Virus record (IMG/VR): IMGVR_UViG_3300047562_003246
Coordinates: 64,001-128,000 of that record
Reading direction: 5' to 3' (one strand)
DNA: 64,000 nt
From: a virus
Below the pieces are notes generated by a model, which searched no databases, was not told where the DNA came from, and saw nothing but the letters and a program-made list of their open reading frames with translations. This document shows, in pieces, positions 1,202 through 63,289 of this stretch. The translations under genes were made by a program, and so were the position numbers. Numbering within the stretch: the stretch's first letter is position 1; each line of letters begins with the position of its first letter.

Positions 1202-3741
1202 GAACTACTAGAACATTAACTAATCAGGATCAACAGTTAGTTTCTAAGATTGGACAACTAACTGGCAGGACTCCTGGCAATCTAGTTCGCGGTAAGTCTG
1301 CGCAGCATTTACATGCGATGAGTCGTGTCGCTGGTTCTAGGATCCGCGATCAAATTTCAAGCGGCTTGTCGAAACTCGCAGCTGGACCTAACACTACGCA
1401 GCAATTTAGTGAGTCTTTTGCTGCGATGGCTTTTACGTTTCTTGAAGAGCGTAGTCCAAGCTTGCGAGAATTTATGCTTGGATTTCAAGTAGTTGACAAA
1501 GATGACGAATTAAACACTGCTTTCGGTGTGTTTGGGTTTGAATTACCCAATCGCATTGTGCAATGCCCAGTGTTCTTTGTGCGAGGTCAAATTAAGGGTT
1601 ATCAGGTAATGTTCCTACCTGAGCAGCAATTGTTTTTGCCATCGCATGAAGGTTTCGTACAGCAACTTATCAACAGTGATAATAGCTCGAACGGAGAACC
1701 TGGACCAGTTTGGGGTGACATGTCAACGATGGCAGACCCTGGTGCTGTAGCTGGTCAAATGCCTCGCAGTATCAAGTACGCACAAATTCTTAAAGAGAAT
1801 AGTGCGATGCCGCCTTTGCCTTGGGCGGAAGAAACCAAACTCTACGAGTCTGTCGCTAGCTGGTTTACTGACCCAACAGCGACAAAACAGCTTTCTTCAT
1901 TACTGACAGAGGGTAATTACAAGTCAGCTGCTTGTAGTGCTGACGATGTTTTATCGTTGGGTTCCAGTGTTTTAGAAAGTGCCTTAAGTCTTGCTGTTGA
2001 ATATCCAGCAATGTACAAAGCGATGCGAGGCAGCGAAACGGATCGATTGCAAAAGATTGCTGAAGTCGCCGAGCGTAACGATAGCGAACGAGTCGTCAGT
2101 TCTCGGATTACGTTTGCTGGAGCAGACTTGCCGAAGCTTATCGGTAAGAAGGCGCAGGATCCTACGCAAACCAAAGTTGCTGTATACATTCAGCCTGAGC
2201 CTCCTAGGCTTTTGGACAAGCAATCAAAGGATCAGTATCGAGACAGTATTAGCACGCACGGTATCTACGTCGTAGATAACCGCAGCGAAACTGAAAGAAG
2301 TGTTCTTGAGAAGTTCTCGATTGACGTTGCACAGGACTTTCAGTCTCTCGCACTTACAGAAACAGTAAGTGGCGATGTGCTCATGGAAAACGGCGAAGTC
2401 AAATCTTGTGTGATCGTACCGAAAAATTACGTCATGCAATTTTCGTGGGCGGGCGACCGTACACCAAACATCGTTTTAACATCTGATGGGAAGTCTTTCC
2501 AAGAAACACATGGCAATCCTGTAGTTACTAACGTTAACGAAGAGTCAGCTGCTAATCCTTTGTTGTCGATGGGTTCAACCGGTATGCCAAAGACTCGCGG
2601 AATGTATTTCGCGGTGACACCCAAAGGCAAACTCATCGGACCTTTCTGTTTGCGTAAAAACAGAGACTCAACGGACAAAGGACCGATATCTGTCAGTCGA
2701 TTTAGTCGTATCGATTACATCATGGAAGTCGAAGAGACTGACGAGATATACACAGCGTTTATCGATGGACAGGATTGCGATAATGTACCAATGTCTACGA
2801 GCGCCAATCGAGATAACTGTTTAGTGCTGCCAACAGACACGCGGTATATCAAGATTGATACCGGTAACGATTCGACTCCAAAAGACGAATACGAGTATTA
2901 TTCGCCTAAGCAAAAATCGCCTATCTATCCAGAGACGTACGATACGATCTCGCCAAAGAAGCTTACCGATATCACTTTGTCGATTCGCAAAGAAGCCGAA
3001 GGTTACATTGCAATCGAAAATAAAGTGATCACTGAAAAGATTGCTAAGGCTATCTTGGTCGGCAGTATTGGGTTATCACTTGAAGACGCATCGAAAACTT
3101 TGACAGGTCTGCACACGGGACACCGTCAAAGATTCTTAATCAAGAATGCTGCCACACAGGTGATGCAAAAGCATAATCCTAACGCAGTTTTTCCAATGCT
3201 TGAAGGCCCGGTCGGCGCTAGCGAAGGTAGTCGTGTTCCTTACATAGTTGATAGTCCTGAGTACGCTCAGCAACCTATCGAAACGCCAGCAGAACAGAAC
3301 ATGACTCCGGAAGAAGCTGGATTGCGGGATGCTATGGAAGGGCACCCGACCTCCGGAATGAATCGTGGTCCGATGGCTGCTGATGGAGGCATGTCAATGG
3401 ATCCTGAGATGCAGCAAGTTATGCAGTCAGGCATTGAGGGACCAATGGACATTTCGATTGTTGCTTCTAGCTTAAGTAACGCTCGCGTCGACGGTGCGAT
3501 CACTCAAGCTATCAGGCATTTGCTTGCAGGTATTAGCGAAACAGGACGATTAATCCTGTTGCTTAACGCACAGCGAACAGCTTTTGAAGACATGTATCCA
3601 GAGAACGATATCAAGCCGCTAGAAGATACTCTGCTATCATCGTTTGAAACAGCCGGTGACGCTTACTTGCGTCTGAAGCAAAAAATGGCAATATCTGATC
3701 CAGCTGCAGATGCTGCTGTGCCCTTTGAACACGCGATGTAA
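1198..3741 (+). CDS. Large hypothetical phage protein (847 aa), likely head-associated
   Basis: Long ORF coupled to the upstream gene. Several KxA motifs (KSAQ, KLAA, KYAQ, KSAA, KIAE, KNAA) and a Met/Gly-rich segment near the C terminus. No catalytic motif recognised. Confidence 0.5.
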   Translation: MRTTRTLTNQDQQLVSKIGQLTGRTPGNLVRGKSAQHLHAMSRVAGSRIRDQISSGLSKLAAGPNTTQQFSESFAAMAFTFLEERSPSLREFMLGFQVVDKDDELNTAFGVFGFELPNRIVQCPVFFVRGQIKGYQVMFLPEQQLFLPSHEGFVQQLINSDNSSNGEPGPVWGDMSTMADPGAVAGQMPRSIKYAQILKENSAMPPLPWAEETKLYESVASWFTDPTATKQLSSLLTEGNYKSAACSADDVLSLGSSVLESALSLAVEYPAMYKAMRGSETDRLQKIAEVAERNDSERVVSSRITFAGADLPKLIGKKAQDPTQTKVAVYIQPEPPRLLDKQSKDQYRDSISTHGIYVVDNRSETERSVLEKFSIDVAQDFQSLALTETVSGDVLMENGEVKSCVIVPKNYVMQFSWAGDRTPNIVLTSDGKSFQETHGNPVVTNVNEESAANPLLSMGSTGMPKTRGMYFAVTPKGKLIGPFCLRKNRDSTDKGPISVSRFSRIDYIMEVEETDEIYTAFIDGQDCDNVPMSTSANRDNCLVLPTDTRYIKIDTGNDSTPKDEYEYYSPKQKSPIYPETYDTISPKKLTDITLSIRKEAEGYIAIENKVITEKIAKAILVGSIGLSLEDASKTLTGLHTGHRQRFLIKNAATQVMQKHNPNAVFPMLEGPVGASEGSRVPYIVDSPEYAQQPIETPAEQNMTPEEAGLRDAMEGHPTSGMNRGPMAADGGMSMDPEMQQVMQSGIEGPMDISIVASSLSNARVDGAITQAIRHLLAGISETGRLILLLNAQRTAFEDMYPENDIKPLEDTLLSSFETAGDAYLRLKQKMAISDPAADAAVPFEHAM
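2152..2165 (+). repeat. Dispersed 14-mer GCGCAGGATCCTAC, exact copy
   Basis: Read directly; in-frame as AQDPT. Confidence 0.95.
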
Positions 3742-3744
3742 ACT

Positions 3745-4104
3745 ATGCCACTGATTTATGGAAACGTACCGAGAACACTACCAGGGTCATACCGGTACGC
3801 TAATTCTGCTTTGGTAGACGAGACCCTGACACAGGGTCAAAATACGACACCAAGTTATTTTGAAGTCGCCAAGCATTTACATGACGAAAACAAAGTAACG
3901 CTTGCAATTACTGCCAGCGGTAACTACGAGTTGCTTATTGAAGTTTCCATTGATGACGGCGTAACATTCAAGACGCTTCGGTCAGTGACTCAAGCGGACC
4001 CAGCAATCATACCTATTAGCTACGTTGATTCAAGTATGAAACTGCGAGTTAGGGCCGTGACGCTTACCGGTAGTGCTAGGGTAGTATTAAGACAAGGAGG
4101 TTAG
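3745..4104 (+). CDS. Small beta-rich hypothetical protein with an Asp-box-like motif
   Basis: VSIDDGVTF resembles the SxDxGxTW/F Asp-box; alternating beta-strand pattern. Confidence 0.4.
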   Translation: MPLIYGNVPRTLPGSYRYANSALVDETLTQGQNTTPSYFEVAKHLHDENKVTLAITASGNYELLIEVSIDDGVTFKTLRSVTQADPAIIPISYVDSSMKLRVRAVTLTGSARVVLRQGG

Positions 4105-4165
4105 TCACTGACTAACCTTTGATTTTGGTTTGAAAAAATGTTTCCTGTTTGTTAAAGGAATGAAG

Positions 4166-9408: not shown

Positions 9409-9456
9409 ATGTATCAGACCTTTAGTTTCGTTATTCGCAATTCCAAGGAGAATAAA

Positions 9457-10023: not shown

Positions 10024-10037
10024 GTAGGATCCTGCGC
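10024..10037 (-). repeat. Dispersed 14-mer, exact copy (reverse), between terminator and ATG 10038
   Basis: gtaggatcctgcgc read directly; its AGGA lies 8 nt before ATG 10038. Confidence 0.95.
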
Positions 10038-11444: not shown

Positions 11445-12842
11445 ATGAATTCAGCTGTAAACCAATTAAGTGATGCCACCAAGCGACGGATCGTATCAGC
11501 AATTACGAGCATGACGGATCATTACAAACAAGGCAGTTCACCTAATGAGGCACTTGAAAAAGTAGCAGCCGAATTCGGATTGTTACCTTATCAGCTTCGT
11601 ATTGTCGGTCGAGGTTTTAACTCGGGACAAACGCAGACGGAGCTGTCTCGTGGTCAAACCATTGCAGAGAAGACTGCTGGTGCGTACCCGCTTGCCGATA
11701 TCGAGGGGACGATTAAAAAGATCTACACGGATAGTCCTGTCGCCAAAGCTGCACAGAAATATGTGGATGACGAAGTGTCTCCAGTTTATGCGCAGGATCC
11801 TACAGTTTTGCAATCGAAAGCAGCCAGTGTTGTCTCTTCTCCGAGAAACGCCGAGCCCGTCGACGATGCACCAAGTCGTCCTCCTGTTTGGGTAGCTCCG
11901 CATCTTTATGATGCAGCTGAAAAGACTTCAACAATATTTCAGTTGCGAGACACCATCATCGCAGCTGACAGAGAAGCGGCGGAAGCTGATACAGAAGCTA
12001 GAGTCCAAGAAGCTAGTTTCAAAGAAGCTGTCGCTAAGTACGCTCATGATGTAGACGTACTGCGTGATTTGTTGTTTGACGCTGAAAGGTTCTATGGACA
12101 AGAAGGTACTGAGCTATTTAAACAAGCCCTCGGTAGTTTTGCAGATTCAAGATATTCAAAGCAGATCAAACAGGTTACTGAACTGGGACCTAGTACGCTA
12201 CGAAAAATCGCATCGTCTGATAAGCATCCGGTTATTCAGAAATTGGCTGGCTGTATGGGCTCTAAGAAGAAGAGCAAAAAGAAGTATCTCAAGAAAGTTG
12301 CTCAGCGGATGATCGTAGCTAAGTTGCAGAGAATGATTCTTGGCAAAGAAAAAGTCGCAAGGTGCTATGGCGTAGAGGTAGGTAGCTACGGTCAGCAAGT
12401 TGAATCACATCTCAATAAGTTCGCAACCAACGTGAAGTCCATGCTGGCCGGAATCGCCGCTCATCGAGCTTCCAGTGGGATTGACCCAAATACATCAAAG
12501 TTTCGTGAGGCAGAACTGCAGATCGAAGATCCTGAGCATGAGCAAGCTCTTAGACAAATTCGGTTGCAAGCAACTTTGCAATCCTTACTGAACTACGATC
12601 CGATCGTGCAGTCCTATGATCCTGAAGAAGTGATCGTTGCTTTTAACGAACTCAGTCAAGCTGCCCCGGCCACGCTGGATAATCCTGTAATGCTTCGAGC
12701 AAATCTTCGAAGATTACTTCAAGGAGATATTGCCACGCACGAAGCCAACCAATTGCAATCTGCTGACATCGAACCACGCAAGCTTATTTCTCCGTTAGCC
12801 GCTCAGGTATCCCAAAGCGTTAAGCCAAGTAAAACTGTCTAA
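11445..12842 (+). CDS. KxA-motif-rich helical protein, probable internal head protein
   Basis: About 12 K-x-A sites (EKVAA, EKTAG, SKAAS, RKIAS, QKLAG, KKVAQ, NKFAT and others); position in head module. Confidence 0.5.
   Translation: MNSAVNQLSDATKRRIVSAITSMTDHYKQGSSPNEALEKVAAEFGLLPYQLRIVGRGFNSGQTQTELSRGQTIAEKTAGAYPLADIEGTIKKIYTDSPVAKAAQKYVDDEVSPVYAQDPTVLQSKAASVVSSPRNAEPVDDAPSRPPVWVAPHLYDAAEKTSTIFQLRDTIIAADREAAEADTEARVQEASFKEAVAKYAHDVDVLRDLLFDAERFYGQEGTELFKQALGSFADSRYSKQIKQVTELGPSTLRKIASSDKHPVIQKLAGCMGSKKKSKKKYLKKVAQRMIVAKLQRMILGKEKVARCYGVEVGSYGQQVESHLNKFATNVKSMLAGIAAHRASSGIDPNTSKFREAELQIEDPEHEQALRQIRLQATLQSLLNYDPIVQSYDPEEVIVAFNELSQAAPATLDNPVMLRANLRRLLQGDIATHEANQLQSADIEPRKLISPLAAQVSQSVKPSKTV
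11790..11803 (+). repeat. Dispersed 14-mer, exact copy
   Basis: Read directly; in-frame AQDPT. Confidence 0.95.
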
Positions 12843-14071: not shown

Positions 14072-15570
14072 GCCAATTAATTAAAATCGCTTCACTTTCT
14101 GACTGGGGACTTGGCGACGAGGGAGCTGTCCTAGCCAAGTATTCCAGCTTTGGTCTTAAAAACGGCGACTACAAGCGTATGCAGAAAGTTGCCGGTGAAA
14201 AGTTTGCAGACGCTGCCAGAAACCTTGTCATCGAAGCAGGATTAGAGCCTGTTTATCAGGCAGCGCTGGCTTCTACAGAGTCCCACGGTTACAACCGAAA
14301 TGGCGACGGCTATAGTGCTGCAATGCTGGATAAGTGCGCCAGTACTTTTGTGGATTACGGCAGACTGTATCGCGGACACAATGCCAAAGATCCAAATAAA
14401 AGCTATGGCATCATCAAGCTAGCTCAGTACGATCCACGCATGGGCGTTGTGCACGTTATCGGTGGATTGTTTAAAGACGCCGAAACAGCTAAACGATTTG
14501 GTGGAGGCAATGCAGCGGATAAAGAGCTTGAGCTTCTTGCTAAAAAAGGCAGCTACCCGGTTTCGCAAGGCAGCTCGATCATCGGCGGCGACAAATGCGT
14601 TATCTGCGGCAAGGTGAGTACCAGTAAAAAAGATTACTGCCTACCAAAGACTGCCGGTGGAGTTTGTGATCTGTTCGGTTGTCGTGGTGGTCTTGGTAAA
14701 ATTGCTGATGACGGAAGGCACCAAGCCCTTGATAACCCTAACGGGATATTTCATGACTTATCCAATGTCGACTTCCCGGCAGATCGACAAGCGGCTGCTT
14801 ATCGTATATCACCTGATGAATTTGATAAGCAAGCGAGTTTACACAGATCGCTCGACAAGCAAGCCGGAACTGTCGATCTTGCATCAATGCAAAAACTCGC
14901 GGCAGTTATCCAAGAGACAAGTCAAACAATCCAGTACTTGCCGTCACAAGCAAAAACATATGCTGACGCGGCGATCAAGCTTGCACAGGTCGAAGGACAG
15001 ATTCGACATGAACTAGCCGGTAAGCGAGAAGATGTTCTTGCTTCGTACGCCGGTCTCAAGCAGACAGATGACGTGACGTTACTGGCCAAACATGCTGCGT
15101 CTGATATTGACAGTTATGTAGCTACCGCAGCAAGAATGTCAGCCAACATGGGTGTTTGCGTTTGTCCAATGGCATTCTTCAAGGCGGCTGGACTGTGTGA
15201 TGCGGATATCGCAGCAGCTACAAGTCGAGCCGCAACCTTGTACACAGATCTTGTATCTGATCCAGCAAGAATGCAGTCTGTATGTCAAAAGGCAGCGCAA
15301 GATAGTGTTTATTTGCCTTTGTCCGCTACGGATTACACAGCTCCAACTGAGCTGCCTTTGAATAGTCATGACGTTCGGCGCAGGAGCCTACAAAAAGTAG
15401 CCGAAGGCGAGACTGTTTCTCCGATAATTTTCAGTTCGCCTAGTTTATCGGTAGCTGCGTCAAAGGCACTAGATAAGTACGCTACCTATTCTTTGAGAAC
15501 TTTGGCTACACTTGTTGTATCCAATCCGCAAGTTGCGACTTTTGCGATAGCACAGTCCAACGTATATTGA
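14068..15570 (+). CDS. Prohead (capsid maturation) protease, HK97/herpes-type fold with Cys-rich insertion
   Basis: NRNGD, LYRGHN (His), PVSQG (Ser), CVIC...C...C insert and FHDLSNVDFPAD (like the E-x-S-x-V-x-x-PA motif); lies upstream of scaffold and capsid genes. Confidence 0.75.
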   Translation: MSQLIKIASLSDWGLGDEGAVLAKYSSFGLKNGDYKRMQKVAGEKFADAARNLVIEAGLEPVYQAALASTESHGYNRNGDGYSAAMLDKCASTFVDYGRLYRGHNAKDPNKSYGIIKLAQYDPRMGVVHVIGGLFKDAETAKRFGGGNAADKELELLAKKGSYPVSQGSSIIGGDKCVICGKVSTSKKDYCLPKTAGGVCDLFGCRGGLGKIADDGRHQALDNPNGIFHDLSNVDFPADRQAAAYRISPDEFDKQASLHRSLDKQAGTVDLASMQKLAAVIQETSQTIQYLPSQAKTYADAAIKLAQVEGQIRHELAGKREDVLASYAGLKQTDDVTLLAKHAASDIDSYVATAARMSANMGVCVCPMAFFKAAGLCDADIAAATSRAATLYTDLVSDPARMQSVCQKAAQDSVYLPLSATDYTAPTELPLNSHDVRRRSLQKVAEGETVSPIIFSSPSLSVAASKALDKYATYSLRTLATLVVSNPQVATFAIAQSNVY

Positions 15571-20272: not shown

Positions 20273-21112
20273 ATGTCAGATCTTATTCTCCCAGGGCAGT
20301 CCAGCTTAAATGATTGCCCGACTATGCCGCTGGATCTAGGCTACCAAATACCTGCAGGTATATCAGCTACGCTGTGCGTGCCGGACGGACAAAGAGAGCC
20401 TGGCGCATATAAAGCAATCTTTACGCCTGTTACTTGTGGCGGCGAACCCATTGATGTTGATATCGCTATTGACGAAGTTATCGTTGATGACTGTGGATTT
20501 AAAATTCCTGTACCAAACGAAGTTGCCGACAACGTAGGTATTTACAGCGTCGAGTTTGCCAAAATGGTCGACGGAAGACCCTCAGGTATTAAGTCCGCAG
20601 TAATCAGCGTCGAAGAGTCTGCATGGGCGCAGGATCCTACAAAACCAGTCGGGATTACGATCGACCGAATCCGCATGCATATGCGAGATACCGAAGCCGG
20701 TGGTGCTGTAATTGAAGGCTACGAGTATTCCACCAAAGAAATCATCAGCTGCTTACTCAGACCAATCGAGTACTGGAACGACACGCCGCCTCCGAACTCC
20801 ATAAAGTTCAGCTCACCTCAGTCTTTCCCATACACGTACAACTGGATGGAAGCAACGATCTCTTGTTTGCTTAAGATCAGTGCCACTTGGTACCTACGAC
20901 AGAGTAAACGAATGACTTACAGTGGTGGATTAACTACGGATGATCGCGATAAAGCAGACAAGTATTTGGCGCTAGCCATGCAAATGTGGGCCAAATACGA
21001 GATGTTTGTGCAACAAACTAAGTTAGCAATTATCCGCAATCAAGGAATCTATCCGACTCCTAGTGCTTTACCGGTGGCTGACTTCGGTTCTTCCATGCCT
21101 CGAAGGTGGTAA
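20273..21112 (+). CDS. Head-tail adaptor (neck) protein
   Basis: C-terminal RMHMRD...EYSTKEI...YWNDTPP...YSGGLTTDD.DK...Y pattern of head-completion proteins; position after capsid gene. Confidence 0.6.
   Translation: MSDLILPGQSSLNDCPTMPLDLGYQIPAGISATLCVPDGQREPGAYKAIFTPVTCGGEPIDVDIAIDEVIVDDCGFKIPVPNEVADNVGIYSVEFAKMVDGRPSGIKSAVISVEESAWAQDPTKPVGITIDRIRMHMRDTEAGGAVIEGYEYSTKEIISCLLRPIEYWNDTPPPNSIKFSSPQSFPYTYNWMEATISCLLKISATWYLRQSKRMTYSGGLTTDDRDKADKYLALAMQMWAKYEMFVQQTKLAIIRNQGIYPTPSALPVADFGSSMPRRW
20627..20640 (+). repeat. Dispersed 14-mer, exact copy
   Basis: Read directly; in-frame AQDPT; followed by AAAA. Confidence 0.95.
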
Positions 21113-28720: not shown

Positions 28721-29628
28721 ACTCTGATTTTATGTCGTCAAGTAGGCCAGCTTCTTTGATCCCAGTCAAAGAGTTATTATCTAACGAGCGAGAAGCCTTG
28801 ACCAAGTTGGGATTAGCACTCGATCAACACGAATACGTGGCAACTGACCTTGCGTCCCGCTTAGACAAAAACCCAGGACTTGATGCGAATCAGGTTAACT
28901 CACTGGCTCTCGATGAATGGAGAGACGAAGATGAGCTATCGACGCTACATCCAGACATCGCAGCTAGTCTGCGTGAAACGCTCGGACAAGAAACAATCAA
29001 AAGTCGTCCGCTTAATGAAATCGTGCAGGATCTTGACGAACAGCCTGATGCGCCTAAAGAAAAAACCGCGCAGGATCCTACAAAACAGGATCAAGAGTCG
29101 ACTGAAGAAGCACTCGCCCAAGTGGTAAGTTCATTAAGTGAGCTGAGAAAGCGGGAGCGAGAGGCGTACCGTAAGCGTGTTAGTGAAGAAGATCGTAATG
29201 CCTTGCTCGAAGAAGCAATGACGGGCAAACAGTTTGAAAAGATATTCAAGCTGCTCAACGGTAAACTAATCATTTGCCTAAGCACAATCACCGCCGAACA
29301 ATCTGACGATATTTCAAAGTATTGTTCAAAACAAGTCAACGTTGTCGGCAGCATGACAACTGATAGTTACCAGATGATGCGGGCTAAGATCAAAGCCGCT
29401 GTCAGACTTAAATACGTTGTCAGTAACGGTAACTTTATGTACCAGCGAGAGGAAGGAAAAGCGGTTGAAGATATTCAGTCGCAGGTTTACAAGACTATCG
29501 CAAACAGTGAAATGTTTAGATTGATGCTTGCAAATTGCGACAAAGAATTCAACATGATCCTCGACTGCATCATGGAGGAGATGACTCGCGATGTTTTTAT
29601 AAATCCCGCGCTAGAAGGCATTGGCTGA
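28717..29628 (+). CDS. Putative tail assembly chaperone (G-like)
   Basis: Lies upstream of the tape measure gene and overlaps a start-less ORF in the -1 frame. Confidence 0.6.
   Translation: MNSDFMSSSRPASLIPVKELLSNEREALTKLGLALDQHEYVATDLASRLDKNPGLDANQVNSLALDEWRDEDELSTLHPDIAASLRETLGQETIKSRPLNEIVQDLDEQPDAPKEKTAQDPTKQDQESTEEALAQVVSSLSELRKREREAYRKRVSEEDRNALLEEAMTGKQFEKIFKLLNGKLIICLSTITAEQSDDISKYCSKQVNVVGSMTTDSYQMMRAKIKAAVRLKYVVSNGNFMYQREEGKAVEDIQSQVYKTIANSEMFRLMLANCDKEFNMILDCIMEEMTRDVFINPALEGIG
29068..29081 (+). repeat. Dispersed 14-mer, exact copy
   Basis: Read directly; in-frame AQDPT; followed by AAAA. Confidence 0.95.
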
Positions 29629-43090: not shown

Positions 43091-44628
43091 TGAGTGGCTT
43101 ACGCTTTGGACCTGGCGCTGCAGATGGTTATCCGTTTTTATCTCGAAGTGACGCTGCTCAGGCTGCTTGCTTAGTTGATATCACAATCACATCTCGATAT
43201 CCGATTAACACCGGGTTTAGGCTCAACGCCATCGATCCGCTGCGGCGCAGGATCCTATTAACTTGCGAAGATCCAGACGTTCGTTTGGAGCTAGAAAACC
43301 CTGAAGTTAAACAACTAGGGGAATTGTTTTATTGGCAGTGGTACTTAGAAGACTACGCAATAGGCGTTGCTGTTGATCCTGGTAAGCCTAGTTTTGCAAA
43401 CGGTAGCCTAATGCTCGTAAGCCGCGTCATTAACTATCTGGGTGACGATGTTAATGAAATTGTTTTTGATACTGTCGACGGCGAAGTATCTTCGAATGAA
43501 AAGCCGTTAGTTTTGCGGCAAGGCTTTAATACTGAAATCAACGTAGATAATGAGCTAGTATCGATTGATGTAGCTCCTGGCCTTGGACAAGGAACAGTCA
43601 GTAACTGTTTTGATAACCAAACTAGAGTTATACGCAAGTTGGCTCAAGCCACCGCAAATACTTCAGGTAACGTTAATCTTCGCGGTGACGAATGCTTCCG
43701 CGTGCAACCTGAACTAATTAAGACAGGTAACGGATATACAGTAAGCCCTGGTCGATTCTACCTGCACGACGACTGCGAGCAATGTTGTAAGTGCGAAGAG
43801 AAAGCAGAAGTATGGCGATTCGCCAAACAAATGCAAGATCGACTTATTCCGCTTGTTGACAAATATCATGAACTTCGCGAAATATATCAAAACAAAGTCA
43901 AAAGTATCCAGGCTGGTAATGACTGTATCACTAGGCCGCTGCTTAATGCCGACTTGGTGCTGCAATCTAACAACGGTTTGTATCTTTACATTACAGTGTG
44001 TAACGGTGGGCTCGAAAGCCTAACCGATGTTGTTATATCTGTATCACCGCTGTACATCACGTCGCATCAATTTCGAAAAAAATATAAAGATGTAGACCCT
44101 GAGTTTTTCGAAGAAAATAAAGGCATCATTGAAATACCAGATGACAGCGTTGAATTCTTTAGTCTGCATGAACAAATCAGATACGCCCGTCATTTACAGA
44201 TGCTTGTGGGTCTTGGTAATTGTAAAGTAGGTCAAACCTATTCCGTAGGTAAAAAAGGGCACTTGAAGTTTCCTGGTGATGTGCTTTGTGTTGTTAGAGA
44301 TTTCGATCCGTTTAATTATGAGATAACAACTAAAGGCAAACAGTTTGAATTTTTTGCTGATGGCGGCATGGAGTTTAATTTTCACTGTATCGAGCCAGGA
44401 GATACACGGTATTTCACTGCACCTGTAGAATTCGCTATTCCTCTTATTGATATTTATAACAATGGAGAGCGATTAACAACAGGCGGAAAAATGACTCCTT
44501 TTGAACACAAAAAAATTGCTTTAATCGTGCATTCTCCGAGTCATCCTGAAATTAGCGTTTCTGTAAAAACTGCTACCGGAAGTTACATTCCGTGTATTCC
44601 CGATCCACTTGAAGAAGATAACGAATGA
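43090..44628 (+). CDS. Tail-associated paralog 2
   Basis: GAADGYPF; DDCEQCCKC followed by coiled coil. Confidence 0.5.
   Translation: MSGLRFGPGAADGYPFLSRSDAAQAACLVDITITSRYPINTGFRLNAIDPLRRRILLTCEDPDVRLELENPEVKQLGELFYWQWYLEDYAIGVAVDPGKPSFANGSLMLVSRVINYLGDDVNEIVFDTVDGEVSSNEKPLVLRQGFNTEINVDNELVSIDVAPGLGQGTVSNCFDNQTRVIRKLAQATANTSGNVNLRGDECFRVQPELIKTGNGYTVSPGRFYLHDDCEQCCKCEEKAEVWRFAKQMQDRLIPLVDKYHELREIYQNKVKSIQAGNDCITRPLLNADLVLQSNNGLYLYITVCNGGLESLTDVVISVSPLYITSHQFRKKYKDVDPEFFEENKGIIEIPDDSVEFFSLHEQIRYARHLQMLVGLGNCKVGQTYSVGKKGHLKFPGDVLCVVRDFDPFNYEITTKGKQFEFFADGGMEFNFHCIEPGDTRYFTAPVEFAIPLIDIYNNGERLTTGGKMTPFEHKKIALIVHSPSHPEISVSVKTATGSYIPCIPDPLEEDNE
43245..43258 (+). repeat. Dispersed 14-mer, 13/14 variant
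   Basis: gcgcaggatcctat; translated in a third frame (RRILL). Confidence 0.8.
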
Positions 44629-45479
44629 ATACTGGTATAACAAACGTACGTGGTTGGCAAAATGACCAGGAAAGTCAGATCTATCCTTTGTTGCGGGCTT
44701 ACGACGTACCAAGAGCTTTACTAACGGACTTGTCTATAGCTGCGGAAGACGAGAACATTTTCATCGATACGCTTTACTGTGGCGATGGTCAGGTCTCTTT
44801 AATCTTGAGTGACTCGTCGGGAGTCGCAGCAGCACTGACAGTAGAAAATCCAGTACGAGGCGAGGTATACACGGTTGTCGATACTCGTTGTATGTTCTCT
44901 GTTAGTTTTGGACAAGCTGCTATCGAAGGGACGTATCGTAATAAAGAAAAACTATTTGTTTCACCGCAGTGTATCCATGTAACTGTCAGAAGTAACTTCG
45001 CAGTTTTCAGACAGGGTGGCCTTCCTTTAAATTCCCCGTTAAAGCTGACAGGTTCAAACGATATTTCCGTACGGTTAGGCTTCATGGACGAAGCTCAGAC
45101 AGAGCAAGCGTTATTTTTGTCGCTAAATACACAAGATGCAGGTATAGACGTACACGATAAGTACTTAGGATCCTGCGACCGCAGACCTGTCAGTCAAAAT
45201 TGCGAAGGCAATCAACCTATCAAAACTTTAAGTGGTGTTCCAAGCGATTGCTGCAACACGATATACATCGAGCTTCAGGGTGTATCGATCGCGCCGCTTA
45301 ATAACTACTGCGGTATCGCCATAGAGTCCGAGTTTACGCTGAAAGAGTCATGCCCAGCTCGGACGTTGACTAGCATAGTAGAAAGATCCGAAGAAGATTG
45401 TGAAAAAACAGACGAAGACGAATCAGACGATGTCGAGCAAGACGGCGCACCTGAAGGCGAAGAACCATTAACCAGCTAA
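44625..45479 (+). CDS. Tail-associated paralog 3
   Basis: GWQNDQESQIYPL; Cys-rich C-terminal part. Confidence 0.5.
   Translation: MNTGITNVRGWQNDQESQIYPLLRAYDVPRALLTDLSIAAEDENIFIDTLYCGDGQVSLILSDSSGVAAALTVENPVRGEVYTVVDTRCMFSVSFGQAAIEGTYRNKEKLFVSPQCIHVTVRSNFAVFRQGGLPLNSPLKLTGSNDISVRLGFMDEAQTEQALFLSLNTQDAGIDVHDKYLGSCDRRPVSQNCEGNQPIKTLSGVPSDCCNTIYIELQGVSIAPLNNYCGIAIESEFTLKESCPARTLTSIVERSEEDCEKTDEDESDDVEQDGAPEGEEPLTS
45165..45178 (-). repeat. Dispersed 14-mer, 12/14 variant (reverse)
   Basis: ttaggatcctgcga; central 12 nt match. Confidence 0.6.
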
Positions 45480-52717: not shown

Positions 52718-53812
52718 CTAATCAACGGCATCGGAACCTAACGAGTCAATCAAAAGCGCCTGGAGGACAGTACTTCCAGGTGCTTTTTTCGTTTGCACCC
52801 TCGATTCTGATTTGTTATTGCTCTTGTCATCTTTTTTGCATGCGCAGGATCCTACAGAATTTTTGCACTTCTTGCAGGACTCCGGTTTCATATCTGCAGC
52901 TGCGGCTTTTTGCAGCTCAACCGGAATTTGATTCGCTTTCTTGGCAATCTCTTTGATGCGACTTGGGCCAAAGAAATTTTCAAGTTCGATGTACTGCAGG
53001 AACTTACCAGGAATGTTCGCAAACTCTGATTGCTTGTAGAACCCGCCTGCAAACGGATAGACCGGTTCGTCGTGCTGAATGATATCGTCCCACGGTGCTC
53101 CGTCAGGGCGAATCTGACAAGCAGCTTTAACGATTTCGGGTAAGCTTTCGTTAATCTCGATAAGATCTTCTTTGTCCAAGACAACTGTTGCAAACTTTTG
53201 TGTCATAAGCATTGTGGCGTTGTCGGTCTCGAAACCATCGAATACCAATCTTCCTCCGACGGCTCGGCTGAATCCTTCGAGATCAGATACGCCGCCGAAG
53301 CCTGCGATCTTGGTAATCCTTGGATCGGTTTCAGACTGTAACGTTGCGGTGATTCTCGTAGCTAGGTCGTGGGCATCGATAGCATCGATAGCCTTTGTCC
53401 CGGCTGCTTTAATTAACCACTGCTGCGCTGCGCGAGCTTCTTTAGCATTGCGAACGGGGTATTTTATGCTAGACGCTGCCGCTTTGTCCATAGCTTGCTT
53501 GTACTGCGAGATACTTGCAGTAAGATCATCTATGATACCGAAGTAACAGGCGCTTTTCATCAACCTATCTTTGACGGTAGGATTGGTACGGTTGTTTTCT
53601 TCCGCGTCCAAAGCGAAAGAAGCAAAACTCAACCAACACGCAGCTTTATTATGAGTTGGATAACGAAGCTGCGGTAATCGCTGCGCAAAGTATTGAGGCG
53701 ACAGCGAAGGGGGTGCCAAAGATTCGGGATCAGCTGTTTTGACGTACTCAGGTAATTCAAAAGCAGCCGCGATTTTGGTTAGGTTAGCTCCCGAAATTTC
53801 AGGCAGGATCAT
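52718..53812 (-). CDS. KxA-motif-rich protein with C-terminal CxxC..C.C cluster
   Basis: TKIAA, VKTAD, MKSAC, DKAAA, IKAAG, TKIAG, QKFAT, VKAAC, QKAAA; CKKCKNSVGSCAC. Confidence 0.55.
   Translation of the reverse strand: MILPEISGANLTKIAAAFELPEYVKTADPESLAPPSLSPQYFAQRLPQLRYPTHNKAACWLSFASFALDAEENNRTNPTVKDRLMKSACYFGIIDDLTASISQYKQAMDKAAASSIKYPVRNAKEARAAQQWLIKAAGTKAIDAIDAHDLATRITATLQSETDPRITKIAGFGGVSDLEGFSRAVGGRLVFDGFETDNATMLMTQKFATVVLDKEDLIEINESLPEIVKAACQIRPDGAPWDDIIQHDEPVYPFAGGFYKQSEFANIPGKFLQYIELENFFGPSRIKEIAKKANQIPVELQKAAAADMKPESCKKCKNSVGSCACKKDDKSNNKSESRVQTKKAPGSTVLQALLIDSLGSDAVD
52752..52789. terminator. Terminator for the + strand operon, overlapping the 3' end of the antisense gene
   Basis: aaaagcgcctgga / tccaggtgctttttt stem 43 nt after stop 52709. 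Confidence 0.7.
52842..52855 (+). repeat. Dispersed 14-mer, exact copy
   Basis: Read directly; lies in the minus-strand gene and is translated as VGSCA. Confidence 0.95.
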
Positions 53813-60092: not shown

Positions 60093-60098
60093 GTGAGA

Positions 60099-60133
60099 AG
60101 AGCCGCACAAGGTCACCAGTCTTGTGCGGCTCT
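60099..60133. other. Perfect 13-bp hairpin upstream of the HUH gene
   Basis: agagccgcacaag / cttgtgcggctct with 9-nt loop and only a weak T tract. Confidence 0.8.
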
Positions 60134-60188
60134 GATTTTGACTTCAGGCTAATTTCCCAACCCCAAAGCCAAACCTCAATCAATCACT

Positions 60189-61229
60189 ATGAATGTACCC
60201 GACAGGAAGTCTCGGGTCAAGAGCGTTCTCTCGCGATCCGTCAAAGAATTCGAAGAAATACAAAAGATAACAGGAGCTAAAAACCTACCTAAGTTCGAAC
60301 TGCTGATGCAAAACAAAGCACGAATTGTCCAGCAAACCAAAGCTGTTCTAGAAGAATCTTGGAACAATAGACTAGATGCTATATACCGAGGCGACATAGC
60401 GGACTCCCGCATGTTTCCTATCAAAGAGTTTCACGACAGACTCAACGATGTGGAACGCTGCTGCACAGAGTACACACGTTATGGTCCTGTGTTTGCGTGC
60501 CAGCAAAGTCTCGCATGTCCCATCTGTAACAGCCACGCTGCGTACGCTTTTGCTTCTCAAAGAACAGCGATGCTTTTTGAACAACTTGGAAAAGTAGATT
60601 ACGTCAAAGTTTTCGAAATCGTAATTAACTTTGGCGATGTGTACATGAGTTTTGCTCCAGAACGATTCGACGAACTTAGCCAAGTGCGAACAGACATACG
60701 AGACTTCTTCGCTAAACGCGATAAAGCTTTTCTGCTACAGGGTTCGAAACGAGGCTATCCAAAAACGTATCGACTACTCGATATGTTCATTCACTCTGCA
60801 CCGTCAACAGTAAACACGCAAATGATCTTCCCGCATCTGCATGTTGTCGGCGTACCTGTATCCACAAGAACAACGCTAGATGATTTTGTCGACGCAGTAT
60901 ACGCCGCTTGCAAAAACTGGAATATTCAGGCTGGGGTAAATTTTTCACCTTCAGAAACTTTCTACGCGAAAAAAGCTTCAGGCAAAAAAACAAAAAACAC
61001 CAAAGACTTTTTCAGAAAGATGCACTACTTAGCGAGGTGTATTAAACCAAGTAGTCACAACGGTAATTCGTATCTGAGCACCGTGACAAGCGTACCTAGA
61101 ATCTTGCGGCAGCGAACAAGTAAATCAGGTACCACAGTGAGCGAGCAATACCGAAAAATTAAAGCTGCTGGTAACGCCAAAATAATCGCTAGGTTTGATA
61201 GCCAGGTTTCACAGTTCCGAATAGTGTAG
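60189..61229 (+). CDS. HUH-superfamily endonuclease-like (Rep/IS91-type) protein
   Basis: CC...CQQSLACPIC Zn-binding region, FEIVINF (motif I-like), FPHLHVV (HUH), HYLAR (catalytic Tyr, Y-x-x-K-like). Confidence 0.6.
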   Translation: MNVPDRKSRVKSVLSRSVKEFEEIQKITGAKNLPKFELLMQNKARIVQQTKAVLEESWNNRLDAIYRGDIADSRMFPIKEFHDRLNDVERCCTEYTRYGPVFACQQSLACPICNSHAAYAFASQRTAMLFEQLGKVDYVKVFEIVINFGDVYMSFAPERFDELSQVRTDIRDFFAKRDKAFLLQGSKRGYPKTYRLLDMFIHSAPSTVNTQMIFPHLHVVGVPVSTRTTLDDFVDAVYAACKNWNIQAGVNFSPSETFYAKKASGKKTKNTKDFFRKMHYLARCIKPSSHNGNSYLSTVTSVPRILRQRTSKSGTTVSEQYRKIKAAGNAKIIARFDSQVSQFRIV

Positions 61230-61279
61230 GATCCTGCGCAGTCGCTTAGGTAACTCAAAATGCGGCAGTCCTACTACTA
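61222..61279. other. Long imperfect hairpin at the 3' end of the HUH gene
   Basis: tagt-gtagga-tc-ctgc-gca ... tgc-g-gcag-tcctac-t-acta. Confidence 0.6.
61226..61239 (-). repeat. Dispersed 14-mer, exact copy (reverse), overlapping the HUH gene stop codon
   Basis: gtaggatcctgcgc; TAG 61227-29 is the stop. Confidence 0.95.
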
Positions 61280-61714: not shown

Positions 61715-62035
61715 TGCTTTTAACTCTCGCACACAAACTTGTAGCATGCCAAAAGTAAACCAACCCAAATACGACATACCTACCGACCTACCAACCTACT
61801 GAATCTGCTTAAAGCAAACTGCTCTGTACACACAATCATCCAGTACAAAAACGGACGCATCTGGCTTTACTGCCACAACCATGCCTACGATCACAACGGC
61901 GTACTCGCCGATAACTACCTGCGACAACTAATAAACCAGTTGCCTCCAGGCTCACTTGCAGGTCACGACAATAGCCCAGCACTGTTCAACCTCAGAAACA
62001 GACACGGCAAACGAATTTAGCTCAGTAATCACTTT

Positions 62036-63277
62036 TTGTTCACTCCACTTAGTCCAGGATCAAACCAAATGTCAACAACAACAAAAAGCAATCACCCACT
62101 CGCAGATCTGTGTCTACCAGTCGAACAACTCTACGCAGAAGACCACATCTACCAACTTGTATCCTCGCAAAAACTAATCCAAGCTATTCCGACTCTAGAA
62201 CACTACATACCGCAAGTGCTATTCATGCACTCGAACCAACCAGAACTAACCAATCTGTACCTGCAGGCAATGCTGCTAAAGCACCAAAACCAAAATCTAG
62301 ATTTAACTCAGCCACTTCAAAAACTTCACTTAACAGCCGAGCAGTTCAGCAAGCTCGATCAGTACATCGCCGTCATTCCTAAATGGGTCTACCCACCACA
62401 AACAAAAGCACTCAAAATGACAACGCCGCCTGATTGTCATCCAGTTGTCGAACCGATTTACCAGTTCGCGCAGCTTCTAGACATGCCTGCCTCGGGTACC
62501 TACGCCCAAGACTACATGGACGATCAGCAATACACGATATTTATGCAAAGTCAAAAACCTGAAACGAGTCAATTCAAAAAACATCTGGTGACCAGGATCT
62601 TCGAAACACTCCACAACCAGTACGCTACAAACAATCCGGTTTACAGCAAAAGATATTTCTTGCGAACAGAAACAGATCTGGCACTGTACTCTTTACAGGG
62701 CTCCTCACGTATTACTGAAACCCAATTAAACACAGTACAAGATTTGCTTTATGCAGAGAACGTACTGACCCGTAAAGAACATCTTATGGACTACCGGCCA
62801 CTGAAGTTCATTCGGTTTTTGCTTGCAAGCAGACGCTATTTCTGCTTTGAGTTTTATAGGGTTTCACTTCATCGTGTCTGGTCGAGTAACAATCCATCTT
62901 TGTTCAGCGAGATTGACTACTCGAAACCAGAGAAAATTACACAGCAGTTATTTCATAACCTCGATAACATGCGTCAAGACTTCGAACTTGAAGTCACTTA
63001 TGATCGTCAGAAATTTCATGAACTTACTACAGGAAAAATCACTGCACAGCAAGCTGCAGAGACAACCCTGTCGGCAGATCTAGATGCTTATCCGGCAAAT
63101 AATCTGACCGTGACTCTGCCGATGTGTACAGCCACAACCAACGCAGTAGCCTTGCTGTTTAGTTTGGCGTCTCAGTTGCCTAAGTACACCATGTACCATT
63201 CGTACTTGGCTAAAGACTTCAAAACCCTTCAGCAAAACCTGGAACAACCCACGATGACCGTAAGCTCCGTTTTGTAG
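62036..63277 (+). CDS. Hypothetical protein (Q/L/T-rich)
   Basis: 413 aa; probable start ATG 62069 after AGGA; stop lies inside the 20-bp palindrome. Confidence 0.45.
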   Translation: MFTPLSPGSNQMSTTTKSNHPLADLCLPVEQLYAEDHIYQLVSSQKLIQAIPTLEHYIPQVLFMHSNQPELTNLYLQAMLLKHQNQNLDLTQPLQKLHLTAEQFSKLDQYIAVIPKWVYPPQTKALKMTTPPDCHPVVEPIYQFAQLLDMPASGTYAQDYMDDQQYTIFMQSQKPETSQFKKHLVTRIFETLHNQYATNNPVYSKRYFLRTETDLALYSLQGSSRITETQLNTVQDLLYAENVLTRKEHLMDYRPLKFIRFLLASRRYFCFEFYRVSLHRVWSSNNPSLFSEIDYSKPEKITQQLFHNLDNMRQDFELEVTYDRQKFHELTTGKITAQQAAETTLSADLDAYPANNLTVTLPMCTATTNAVALLFSLASQLPKYTMYHSYLAKDFKTLQQNLEQPTMTVSSVL

Positions 63278-63289
63278 GATCCTACAAAA
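63270..63289. repeat. Perfect 20-bp palindrome TTTTGTAGGATCCTACAAAA, symmetric form of the dispersed motif
   Basis: Read directly. Confidence 0.95.

What the first reader, a model, noticed from the sequence alone, without database searches (positions are those of the whole stretch)
2152..63289. Genome-wide dispersed 14-bp motif GCGCAGGATCCTAC, conserved at DNA level inside genes
Seen: exact copies at 2152, 11790, 20627, 29068, 39728, 49319, 52842 (+) and 10024, 61226 (-); variants at 43245 (13/14) and 45165 (12/14); a symmetric form at 63270. A given 14-mer is expected about 0.0005 times in 128 kb at equal base frequencies. It is translated as AQDPT, AGSY, RRIL or VGSCA or is intergenic, so protein coding cannot explain it. 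Its core is near-palindromic (GYAGGATCCTRC), often followed by AAAA, and copies recur every 2-10 kb. Inference: a site for a dimeric protein that organises, partitions or represses the phage genome (compare parS, matS, or the intragenic stoperators of mycobacteriophage L5), or a recognition site for the HUH protein at 60189. I do not recognise it as a known site.
Basis: partly seen in the sequence, partly recalled or inferred. Interest (0 to 1): 0.9.

Follow-up and report, generated by a model that had tools for sequence, protein, structure and literature searches.

The report
Evenly spaced phage motif tied to nickase
An uncultured 185-kb phage carries 30 exact, evenly spaced copies of one 14-base DNA word, many written into its own genes. 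In the phage and its three closest known relatives, a copy of each genome's own word sits at the stop codon of a rolling-circle-type DNA-nicking gene, so it is probably that enzyme's recognition site.

Summary
The window holds 9 exact copies. The whole 185,237-bp phage record holds 30 exact copies, 2 one-mismatch variants and a few two-mismatch variants. Copies lie 6.2 ± 3.1 kb apart, far more evenly than chance (CV 0.50 against 0.97; 0 of 20,000 simulations).

Synonymous-codon shuffling removes the intragenic copies. Two alignable copies arose by substitution in conserved coding sequence, not by insertion.

The exact word is private to this lineage. The closest relative (L204, TerL 68%) has the same word. 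Two others carry their own GCGCAG-headed palindromes: GCGCAGATWATCTGCGC and GCGCAGGCGCGCCTG. Three distant relatives show no such motif in the 22 kb examined from each.

In all four motif-bearing genomes, a copy overlaps or abuts the stop codon of one fast-evolving gene (window 60189-61229). That gene has an invariant Zn-finger Cys cluster, an HUH motif and a downstream Tyr. Its modelled fold best matches viral HUH Rep nucleases, at middling scores.

Best reading (about 0.45): the word is the cognate binding and nicking site of this Rep-like HUH endonuclease, spread genome-wide in this phage. The first 7 bases equal the phage T5 nick consensus GCGCRGG, but T5 has no homologue of the protein.

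Nicking is inferred, not shown. The scan had flagged a similar HUH-plus-palindrome arrangement in another phage.

The parts
2152..2165 (+). exact motif copy, in frame 0 (AQDPT) of the 847-aa ORF 1198-3741
10024..10037 (-). exact copy, intergenic, directly after the T-run of a strong hairpin terminator downstream of ORF 9409-9948
11790..11803 (+). exact copy, AQDPT in ORF 11445-12842
15378..15391 (+).
20627..20640 (+). exact copy, AQDPT in ORF 20273-21112
29068..29081 (+). exact copy, AQDPT in a low-complexity stretch of ORF 28717-29628
39728..39741 (+). exact copy, AGSY in ORF 38938-40227; aligns without indel to PQQT in the L183-genome homologue
43245..43258 (+). 13/14 variant GCGCAGGATCCTAT (RRIL) in ORF 43090-44628
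45165..45178 (-). 12/14 variant TCGCAGGATCCTAA
49319..49332 (+). exact copy, AQDPT in a variable segment of the tail-fibre-like ORF 47861-50401
52842..52855 (+). exact copy, antisense (VGSCA) near the 3' end of the minus-strand ORF 52718-53812; the L184 relative has a copy just past the 3' end of the homologous gene
60099..60133 (+). perfect 13-bp-stem hairpin 55 nt upstream of the HUH gene (dG -16.1, z -5.8), probably the terminator of the preceding gene
60189..61229 (+). Rep-like HUH endonuclease gene (P0052, 346 aa): Cys cluster C91/C104/C110/C113, PH216LH218, Y280; candidate enzyme for the motif
61226..61239 (-). exact copy whose TAG is the stop codon of the HUH gene
61261..61274 (+). degenerate inverted partner (TGCGGCAGTCCTAC) that can pair with the copy at 61226 in an imperfect hairpin (z -3.1)
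63270..63289 (.). fully symmetric variant TTTTGTAGGATCCTACAAAA at the stop of ORF 62036-63277

Best explanation
GCGCAGGATCCTAC(R) is most likely the double-stranded recognition site of the phage's own Rep-like HUH endonuclease (window 60189-61229).

Proposed mechanism: the enzyme binds the near-palindromic core, probably as a dimer, and makes a site-specific single-strand nick. This gives about 30 defined nicks or 3'-OH ends at roughly 6-kb intervals along the 185-kb genome.

The ancestral arrangement is still seen in relatives: a cluster of sites just downstream of the HUH gene, like the origin next to a rolling-circle rep gene. In this phage, selection has written further copies by point substitution into permissive places all over the genome. 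These places are gene ends, intergenic spacers, and loop-like or low-complexity stretches of proteins.

The likeliest uses are nick-primed, strand-displacement or recombination-dependent replication by the phage's PolA-type polymerase, or T5-style localised nicks in packaged DNA.

Shown here:
- the motif statistics;
- the even spacing;
- origin of two alignable copies by substitution in place;
- clade-specific motif divergence with a shared GCGCAG head;
- HUH-type motifs, with fold matches that are only suggestive;
- the 4-of-4 adjacency of a motif copy to the HUH gene's stop codon.

Inferred only: that this protein binds the motif, that it nicks, which strand it nicks, and the biological use.
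For: 1. DNA-level selection.
- There are 30 exact and only 2 one-mismatch copies.
- A synonymous shuffle removes the intragenic copies.
- Copies occur in several reading frames, on both strands, and in non-coding DNA.
- The helicase copy (RRILR against RRQLR) and the copy at window 39728 (AGSY against PQQT) align to relatives without indels. These two arose by substitution.

2. Even coverage. The spacing CV is 0.50, with 0 of 20,000 simulations as low.

3. The system is conserved while the word drifts.
- L204 (TerL 68% identical) has the same 14-mer.
- L183 (60%) has GCGCAGATWATCTGCGC five times.
- L184 (45%) has GCGCAGGCGCGCCTG six times.
- TerL relatives at 34-38% show no over-represented word in the 22 kb held for each.

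4. Link to the HUH gene.
- G000: the stop codon TAG lies inside the motif.
- L204: the stop TAG lies inside the one-base-longer variant GCGCAGGAATCCTAC.
- L183: the stop TAA is the centre of the palindrome.
- L184: the motif starts 2 nt after the TGA.
- In L183 and L184, 4 of the 5-6 copies cluster within 2.5-4 kb downstream of this gene.
- In the held 22 kb around TerL, the three distant relatives lack both a homologue of this gene and a dispersed motif.

5. Nature of the protein.
- The family has 11 representatives among 1.8 billion proteins.
- C104, C110, C113, P215-H216-x-H218 and Y280 are invariant.
- The most distant member is a bona fide Rep_1 (PF01446, 2e-59). Two members touch PF23343.
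- hhalign of the family against that member gives E = 5e-5 and probability 67%.
- The AF2 model has pLDDT 79.6 and pTM 0.80.
- The best structural match is the SIRV1 ORF119 Rep (Z 7.3, 113 of 116 residues). MVM NS1, B19 NS1 and Helitron HUH domains score Z 6.0-6.4.

6. Precedent for nick sites. The T5 major nicks are R/GCGCRGG (PMC3517423). The T5 record shows a/GCGCAGGGCAATTGCCCTGC and related sites. This is the same 7-base head, and one site has the same head-plus-palindrome layout.
Against: - No physical evidence for nicks or for binding was obtained.
- HUH enzymes usually cut single-stranded DNA, often in an extruded hairpin. The G000 word cannot form a hairpin, and the sites are no more foldable than random windows (p = 0.44).
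- Known nick-site systems (T5, tf, phiKMV) keep all sites on one strand. Here the split is 20:10 (p = 0.10 against 1:1).
- The HUH proteins of G000 and L204 are only 30% identical yet their genomes share the same word. The specificity determinant is therefore not obvious.
- In L183 several neighbouring genes also end at a motif copy, so adjacency to the HUH gene is less exceptional there.
- The adjacency may reflect one inherited position rather than four independent events.
- T5 has no homologue of the protein.
- The fold-match Z scores are in the range the tool calls middling. Foldseek found nothing significant.
Confidence: 0.45

Rival explanations
1. The word is a binding site for a different, unidentified dimeric DNA-binding protein. 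That protein would organise, condense or globally regulate the genome, working like matS/MatP, parS/ParB, Noc/SlmA sites or L5 stoperators. No cutting would be involved. The copy at the HUH gene would be only one of many gene-end copies.
For: - The core is a near-palindrome, and relatives carry perfect palindromes.
- Spacing is strikingly even, which suits a coverage function.
- Mixed orientation fits a symmetric binder.
- The phage has its own multisubunit RNA polymerase. A global regulator acting on it is conceivable.
Against: - No ParB_N domain is present, and Pfam or PHROGs found no candidate binder among about 50 proteins scanned.
- In relatives the sites are not spread out. They cluster next to the HUH gene.
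- The spacing between half-sites differs among relatives (CAGG-AT-CCTA, CAGA-TWA-TCTG, CAGG-CGCG-CCTG) while the asymmetric GCGCAG head is kept. That is odd for a simple symmetric dimer.
- The 4-of-4 overlap with the HUH stop codon is left unexplained.
Confidence: 0.25
2. These are T5-type localised nick sites, made late in infection by a nickase unrelated to the HUH protein. The T5 enzyme is also unidentified.
For: - The first 7 bases, GCGCAGG, equal the T5 consensus GCGCRGG (PMC3517423).
- T5 nick 1 has the same head-plus-palindrome layout.
- PolA is the one protein shared with T5 by tblastn.
- Sites inside genes are normal for nick systems.
Against: - Apart from PolA, no protein is shared with T5 by tblastn.
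- No HNH (PF01844) is present in the genome.
- The purine before the cut site is not conserved (12 of 30 copies).
- Sites lie on both strands, unlike T5.
- A 7-base resemblance can be coincidence.
Confidence: 0.12
3. The word is a selfish or neutral repeat family spread by the HUH protein, a phage version of bacterial REP elements with their RAYT. It would have no function for the phage.
For: - A single-copy HUH gene is flanked at its 3' end by an inverted doublet of the repeat.
- The reverse strand starts with GTAG, as REPs do.
- Earlier scan notes describe a similar arrangement in another RNAP-encoding phage (e1-5345922).
Against: - The two alignable intragenic copies arose by substitution without indels.
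- 60% of copies are intragenic, and the word does not form a hairpin.
- Even spacing and near-absence of decayed copies indicate purifying selection.
- The protein relates to Rep_1, not to the IS200/IS605 Y1 transposases that define RAYTs.
Confidence: 0.08
4. The word is a promoter, terminator or RNA-processing signal for the phage-encoded RNA polymerase.
For: - The phage encodes a beta/beta' polymerase.
- 12 of 30 copies are intergenic or overlap stop codons, against 7% non-coding DNA (p = 4e-7).
- Several lie 7-14 nt upstream of the next start codon or next to terminator hairpins.
- The L183 palindrome is a 7-bp-stem hairpin followed by TTT.
Against: - 18 of 30 copies lie inside ORFs.
- Orientation relative to transcription is mixed in both intergenic (8:4) and intragenic copies.
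- There is no excess RNA structure in G000.
- Short intergenic spacers make nearness to starts and stops unavoidable.
Confidence: 0.05

Closest known systems
Localised single-strand interruptions of phage T5/BF23 (consensus R/GCGCRGG), and of phiKMV-like and tf/LUZ24-like phages
   Same: - A long, specific word recurs along a virulent phage genome, inside genes as well as between them.
- The G000, L204 and L184 words start with the T5 heptamer GCGCAGG. The L183 word shares GCGCAG.
- T5 nick 1 is also head plus palindrome.
- In tf, the site sequence differs between related phages, as it does here (PMC3517423).
   Different: - Nicks are not demonstrated here.
- Sites lie on both strands (20:10), not one.
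- There are 30 evenly spaced sites, against 4-5 major sites in T5.
- No protein is shared with T5 except PolA.
- A candidate enzyme (HUH) can be named here. According to the papers read here, the purpose of the T5 nicks is unknown; no nicking enzyme was named in the passages read.
Rolling-circle Rep proteins of the HUH superfamily with their double-strand origins (pC194/Rep_1 family, phage P2 gene A, SIRV1 ORF119)
   Same: - The motif order is Zn-finger Cys cluster, HUH, then catalytic Tyr.
- The cognate site lies at or next to the rep gene.
- Relatives have a cluster of sites plus a compositionally odd non-coding stretch downstream, like an origin.
   Different: - The host replicon is a 185-kb phage with its own helicases and PolA.
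- There are about 30 sites rather than one origin.
- The G000 site cannot extrude as a hairpin.
- The protein itself does not reach any Pfam threshold.
REP elements and their RAYT (TnpA-REP) HUH proteins in bacteria
   Same: - A single HUH gene is accompanied by a genome-wide family of short palindromic repeats.
- A repeat doublet sits beside the gene.
- Read in reverse, the word has a GTAG head.
   Different: - The word is 14-15 bp, not a hairpin, and mostly intragenic.
- The two alignable copies were made by substitution.
- Copies are evenly spaced.
- The protein is Rep_1-like, not a Y1 transposase.
Stoperators of mycobacteriophage L5 (13-bp repressor sites, about 30 per genome)
   Same: - The copy number is similar.
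- The word is asymmetric.
- Sites occur inside and between genes.
   Different: - L5 sites keep one orientation relative to transcription and belong to a temperate phage's repressor.
- Here orientation is mixed, and no repressor or integrase was seen.

Membership tests
T5-type localised nick sites | Physical, ligatable single-strand breaks at the sites in virion DNA | not testable with these tools
T5-type localised nick sites | Consensus 5'-R/GCGCRGG-3' | tested here: inconclusive
   GCGCAGG is present in all 30 copies. The preceding base is a purine in only 12 of 30. The T5 sites were read from AY543070, and the consensus comes from PMC3517423.
T5-type localised nick sites | All sites on one DNA strand | tested here: not met
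   20 forward and 10 reverse copies.
HUH superfamily Rep endonucleases (for the protein at 60189-61229) | His-hydrophobic-His metal-binding motif and a downstream catalytic Tyr, conserved across the family | tested here: met
   P215, H216, H218 and Y280 are invariant in 10 sequences at 12-31% identity.
HUH superfamily Rep endonucleases (for the protein at 60189-61229) | HUH (RRM-like) nuclease fold | tested here: inconclusive
   The AF2 model has pLDDT 79.6. The VIA-align top hit is SIRV1 Rep 2x3g at Z 7.3 (113 of 116 residues). MVM NS1, B19 NS1 and Helitron score Z 6.0-6.4. These Z values are below 8, and Foldseek found nothing significant.
Pfam Rep_1 (PF01446, pC194-type initiators) | Score above the Pfam gathering threshold | tested here: not met
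   P0052 has no Rep_1 hit. Only the remotest family member, P0062, scores (2e-59). The profile link to it is E = 5e-5 with 67% probability.
REP/RAYT systems | HUH protein of the IS200/IS605 Y1 transposase type | tested here: not met
   Pfam scan of all 10 family members listed eight families, among them Rep_1 and REP_ORF2-G2P; Y1_Tnp was not among them.
REP/RAYT systems | Repeats are extragenic, hairpin-forming palindromes of 20-40 nt | tested here: not met
   18 of 30 copies are intragenic. The word is 14-15 bp. Folding shows no excess over random windows (p = 0.44).
REP/RAYT systems | HUH gene flanked by copies of the repeat | tested here: inconclusive
   The 3' flank carries a copy in 4 of 4 genomes, with a degenerate inverted partner in G000. 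The 5' flank carries an unrelated hairpin.
L5-type stoperators | Sites in one orientation relative to transcription | tested here: not met
   Intragenic copies split 15 sense to 3 antisense. Intergenic and stop-overlapping copies split 4 to 8.
parS/ParB partition sites | A ParB-family protein encoded by the replicon | tested here: not met
   No ParB_N (PF02195) match in six frames of the 185-kb record. The record is about 88% complete.

The most novel reading that the evidence does not exclude
A small clade of uncultured RNA-polymerase-encoding jumbo phages has turned a rolling-circle Rep/origin pair into a genome-wide system. One HUH endonuclease nicks about 30 evenly spaced, selected-in-place sites, creating many priming or recombination points (or T5-like structural nicks) on a 185-kb linear genome. 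If so, this would be the first case where a dispersed phage nick or recognition word can be assigned to a named enzyme class. It would also give a handle on the unexplained purpose of localised nicks in phage DNA.
Probability: 0.3. Interest if true: 0.85.

Novelty: new variant of a known kind. Interest (0 to 1): 0.74.

Why it matters
Dispersed, sequence-specific marks on phage genomes have been known for decades. Examples are the T5 nicks, the phiKMV and tf nicks, and the mycobacteriophage stoperators. According to the papers read here, the purpose of such nicks remains unknown, and no nicking enzyme was named in the passages read.

Here the word is extreme: 30 exact 14-mers, evenly spaced, written into conserved genes by substitution. 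The system is conserved in a clade while the word drifts. Comparative genomics points to one specific candidate enzyme.

That makes a direct test cheap: one 346-aa protein and one 15-bp oligonucleotide. If the protein cuts, it is a new long-site nicking specificity. It would also be a model for how a large virus distributes replication, recombination or packaging functions along its DNA.

The phage itself is very divergent. Most of the proteins scanned have no Pfam or PHROG match.

Tried and rejected
- **Host-derived uptake or Chi-like word.**
  - The exact scan of 185,579 species genomes showed only single chance hits in the 120 rows returned, and the scan was truncated.
  - The one double hit, L106, is a long duplicated segment with no similarity to the phage.
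- **Same word in other viruses.** 54 IMG/VR contigs carry single chance hits only. The relatives' words also gave only single hits in IMG/VR.
- **More relatives.**
  - TerL peptide scans of IMG/VR and JGI metagenomes gave only 25-30% relatives or a 1.3-kb fragment.
  - blastn against cultured phages gave nothing. tblastn gave at best 25% TerL identity.
- **Contigs of other HUH family members** (L193-L196). They are too short (1.3-2.4 kb) to reveal dispersed words, and no GCGCAG word lies at their gene ends.
- **A T5 homologue of the HUH protein.** None was found by profile search of six frames.
- **Other candidate enzymes in G000.** HNH and ParB_N searches were negative.
- **Foldseek against PDB.** There was no significant match. 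The PDB sequence-profile search returned noise only.
- **Hairpin or RNA-structure reading for G000.** Rejected by MFE comparison.
- **Mobile 15-bp insertion reading.** Rejected for the two alignable intragenic sites.
- **Records behind L183 and L184.** The genome search does not hold them, so those genomes were extended by walking with gene look-ups instead.

Full report
**1.

With up to two mismatches there are 13 matches, against 0.27 expected from dinucleotide shuffles. A third variant at 15378 was missed. The 'symmetric form' is TTTTGTAGGATCCTACAAAA at 63270-63289.

The window is bases 64001-128000 of a 185,237-bp IMG/VR viral record, estimated 88% complete. That record holds 30 exact copies (20 forward, 10 reverse) and only two one-mismatch copies. 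The reversed word occurs 0 times.

Aligning the 30 copies shows a sharply bounded block. All 14 positions are invariant, position 15 is a purine in 29 of 30, and nothing upstream is conserved. An A-tract follows in 10 of 30 copies, against a 6.9% background (p = 2e-5).

**2. The conservation is at the DNA level**

A crude ORF map gives 218 genes, nearly all on the plus strand, covering 93% of the genome.

- 18 copies lie inside ORFs. Eleven are read as AQDPT, and the rest as AGSY, RRIL/RILR or VGSCA.
- 8 copies are intergenic.
- 4 copies overlap a stop codon.

Shuffling synonymous codons within each gene, with intergenic DNA left alone, reduces the count from 30 to a mean of 9.5 (range 8-12). 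Protein sequence plus codon usage therefore does not explain the intragenic copies.

Many intragenic copies lie in low-complexity or linker-like peptide stretches. Two lie in alignable conserved sequence. The helicase-like protein reads NRRILRIF where the L184 relative reads FRRQLRRF. The ORF at window 38938-40227 reads SAGSYV where the L183 relative reads TPQQTL. Neither alignment has an indel. These two copies were therefore made by point substitution, not by insertion of a small mobile unit.

Non-coding and stop-overlapping positions are still strongly preferred: 12 of 30 copies against 7% of the DNA (p = 4e-7).

**3. The copies are evenly spread**

Successive copies are 6,188 ± 3,069 bp apart. 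The CV is 0.50, against 0.97 for random placement, and none of 20,000 simulations was as regular. The largest gap, 11,858 bp, is smaller than expected (P = 6.5e-4).

The strand split of 20:10 is not significantly different from 1:1 (p = 0.10).

The 60-nt windows around the copies fold no better than random genomic windows (p = 0.44). In this phage the word is therefore not a hairpin element.

**4. It is not borrowed from a host and is not an artefact**

- An exact scan of IMG/VR found only single chance hits in 54 other contigs.
- A scan of one genome per prokaryotic species returned single hits in the rows shown; that scan was truncated at 120 rows. The only double hit is a long duplicated segment unrelated to the phage.
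- Reading frames pass through the copies.
- An independently assembled relative carries the same word (section 5).

**5. Relatives have the system, with a drifting word**

The phage has no cultured relative. blastn finds nothing, and the best TerL match among cultured phages is 25% identical. TerL homologues from metagenomes led to contigs of relatives.

| Relative | TerL identity | DNA held | Word and copies |
|---|---|---|---|
| L204 | 68% | 5.9 kb | One exact GCGCAGGATCCTAC, one GTGCAGGATCCTAC, one one-base-longer GCGCAGGAATCCTAC |
| L183 genome | 60% | 31.5 kb | Five exact GCGCAGATWATCTGCGC plus one variant |
| L184 genome | 45% | 41.5 kb | Six exact GCGCAGGCGCGCCTG plus variants, all intergenic |
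| Three relatives | 34-38% | 22 kb each | No over-represented word |

A narrow clade therefore shares a dispersed motif with a constant GCGCAG(G) head and a variable, more or less palindromic remainder.

In L183 and L184 most copies cluster in the 2.5-4 kb just downstream of one gene (section 6). Only G000 shows the genome-wide, evenly spaced pattern.

**6. The gene the motif is tied to**

In all four motif-bearing genomes, a copy of that genome's own word overlaps or abuts the stop codon of the homologue of window 60189-61229:

- G000: ...AGTGTAG|GATCCTGCGC
- L204: ...TTTGTAG|GATTCCTGCGC
- L183: ...GCGCAGATAA|TCTGCGC
- L184: TGA|CA-CAGGCGCGCCTGCGC

In G000 only about 5 of 218 genes end at a copy. 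In L183 and L184 gene-end copies are commoner, so the coincidence is weaker there. The position may also be inherited rather than independently gained.

The protein (P0052, 346 aa) has no Pfam or PHROG hit of its own. An exhaustive profile search of 1.8 billion representative proteins found a family of only 11. In the alignment, the Cys cluster (C104, C110, C113; C91 nearly), P215-H216-x-H218 and Y280 are invariant despite 12-31% identity.

Links to known HUH proteins:

- The most distant family member is a clear Rep_1 (pC194-type) initiator (PF01446, 2e-59), with the FLTLT, HPHLHII and KYxxK motifs.
- Two members touch PF23343 at 3e-4.
- hhalign links the rest of the family to the Rep_1 member at E = 5e-5, probability 67%.
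- An AlphaFold model built on the family alignment is confident (pLDDT 79.6, pTM 0.80).
- Foldseek found nothing significant.
- An all-against-representatives structural search put the SIRV1 ORF119 Rep first (Z 7.3, 113 of 116 residues). MVM NS1, B19 NS1 and a Helitron transposase scored Z 6.0-6.4. All are HUH nucleases, but the Z values are middling.

Taken together, I regard 'Rep-like HUH endonuclease' as well supported and 'member of Pfam Rep_1' as not shown.

The gene is single-copy in G000. In the held 22-kb loci of the three motif-less relatives no homologue was found, and no gene of comparable size occupies the corresponding position beside TerL.

G000 and L204 share the word although their HUH proteins are only 30% identical.

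**7. Features around the gene**

- A perfect 13-bp-stem hairpin precedes it (60099-60133, z -5.8).
- The copy at its stop can pair with a degenerate inverted partner at 61261-61274 (z -3.1). I checked this after an earlier scan note pointed to it.
- GC skew is positive in every 4-kb bin of the genome except 120-128 kb, and strongly negative only at 124-128 kb. That bin holds the HUH gene and the 2-3 kb after it (-0.25 at 1-kb resolution). The same dip follows the HUH gene in the L184 and L183 genomes.
- In L184 that stretch is about 4 kb of non-coding DNA. It holds four motif copies and some 25-30 copies of a second hairpin repeat.

This layout resembles a rep gene followed by an origin region.

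**8. The T5 resemblance**

I had nick sites in mind before seeing this. The tf paper states that the T5 major nicks share 5'-R/GCGCRGG-3' (PMC3517423).

The T5 record AY543070 annotates the nicks. The sequences are a/GCGCAGGGCAATTGCCCTGC, a/GCGCAGGGGG, a/GCGCAGGGCT and g/GCGCGGGC. The G000, L204 and L184 words begin with the same heptamer. T5 nick 1 has the same head-plus-palindrome build.

Against a direct relationship:

- Only PolA is shared with T5 by tblastn.
- T5 has no homologue of the HUH protein.
- The purine before the head is not conserved here.
- T5 keeps its nicks on one strand.

The papers read here describe the purpose of the T5 nicks as unknown (PMC3517423, PMC8545432); no nicking enzyme was named in the passages read.

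**9. Other context**

- The phage encodes its own multisubunit RNA polymerase: a beta plus beta'-N fusion at genome 170093-174508, and a beta'-C piece at 61025-62950.
- It encodes a PolA with an N-terminal UDG-like domain, an SbcC/SMC-like ATPase and helicases.
- No ParB_N or HNH domain was found in six frames.
- Most proteins scanned have no family match.

**10. Reading**

The best-supported explanation is that the word is the cognate site of the Rep-like HUH endonuclease, and that the enzyme nicks there.

The ancestral state would be a rep-origin module with a few clustered sites. In G000, selection has added sites by substitution at roughly 6-kb intervals across the genome. I favour nick-primed or recombination-dependent replication, or T5-like structural nicks, as the use. 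That step is pure inference.

The main rival is a separate, non-cutting dimeric binder that organises or regulates the genome. A non-HUH T5-type nickase, a REP-like neutral repeat family, and a transcription signal are less likely, for the reasons listed under the rivals.

**11. Novelty**

I found no paper describing a dispersed recognition word tied to an HUH gene in a large phage.

Earlier notes of this scan flag the same gene in this genome. They also flag a comparable arrangement in another genome: a dispersed palindrome with inverted copies bracketing the only HUH gene of a phage that encodes its own RNA polymerase. I did not check that other genome.

I class this finding as a new variant of a known kind (dispersed phage recognition or nick sites). 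It has unusually clean statistics and a directly testable enzyme candidate.

Noticed in passing
L213:3400-7300 (ENA ERZ18242361 NODE_116, downstream of the HUH gene of the L184 relative): About 4 kb with almost no called genes. It holds some 25-30 copies of a second repeat, a hairpin of the form (G)CTCAGTGG-TTTCATNA-CTGAG(C), interleaved with four copies of that phage's GCGCAGG word. It could be an origin region or a small-RNA array.
   Followed up: partly
window 60001-64000 (genome 124-128 kb); also R184 24-26 kb and R183 24-26 kb: GC skew is positive in every 4-kb bin of the genome except 120-128 kb, and strongly negative (down to -0.25) only in the HUH gene and the 2-3 kb after it, where AT skew is positive. 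The same dip follows the HUH gene in both relatives. The ORFs called there (61280-61714, 62036-63277) have no family hits and are barely conserved in the closest relative, so their reality is uncertain.
   Followed up: partly
genome 170093-174508 and 61025-62950 (outside the window; L211:8093-12508, L208:9025-10950): The phage encodes a multisubunit RNA polymerase. One gene is a 1471-aa fusion of beta (Rpb2_6) with the N-terminal part of beta' (Rpb1_1, Rpb1_2). A separate 641-aa gene carries the beta' C-terminal piece (Rpb1_5).
   Followed up: no
genome 138701-141841 (L209:12701-15841): The family A DNA polymerase carries an N-terminal uracil-DNA-glycosylase-superfamily domain. The same fusion is present in the L184 relative.
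   Followed up: no
window 540-660: Six tandem 21-bp repeats (unit containing GTCAAAGCACTGGTGG) lie inside the ORF 47-1201, giving a 7-residue protein repeat. A similar 30-bp tandem repeat (GATGATGACTCGGATG...) lies at genome 128757-128943, just outside the window.
   Followed up: no
L184:13474-15279 (-): A 601-aa gene with a weak Cas12f1-like_TNB (TnpB-type) hit sits a few genes from the terminase in the L184 relative. It has no counterpart in G000.
   Followed up: no
genome 2113-2126 (outside the window; L001): Here the motif supplies one arm of a stem: GCGCAGG...CCTGCGC followed by a T-run on the plus strand. This copy doubles as part of an intrinsic-terminator-like hairpin.
   Followed up: no
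window 57255-59192 (-) and 52718-53812 (-): The large terminase (GpA-type, PF05876 in homologues) and one 364-aa gene are among the few minus-strand genes in an otherwise unidirectional genome. This inversion is conserved in all relatives examined.
   Followed up: no
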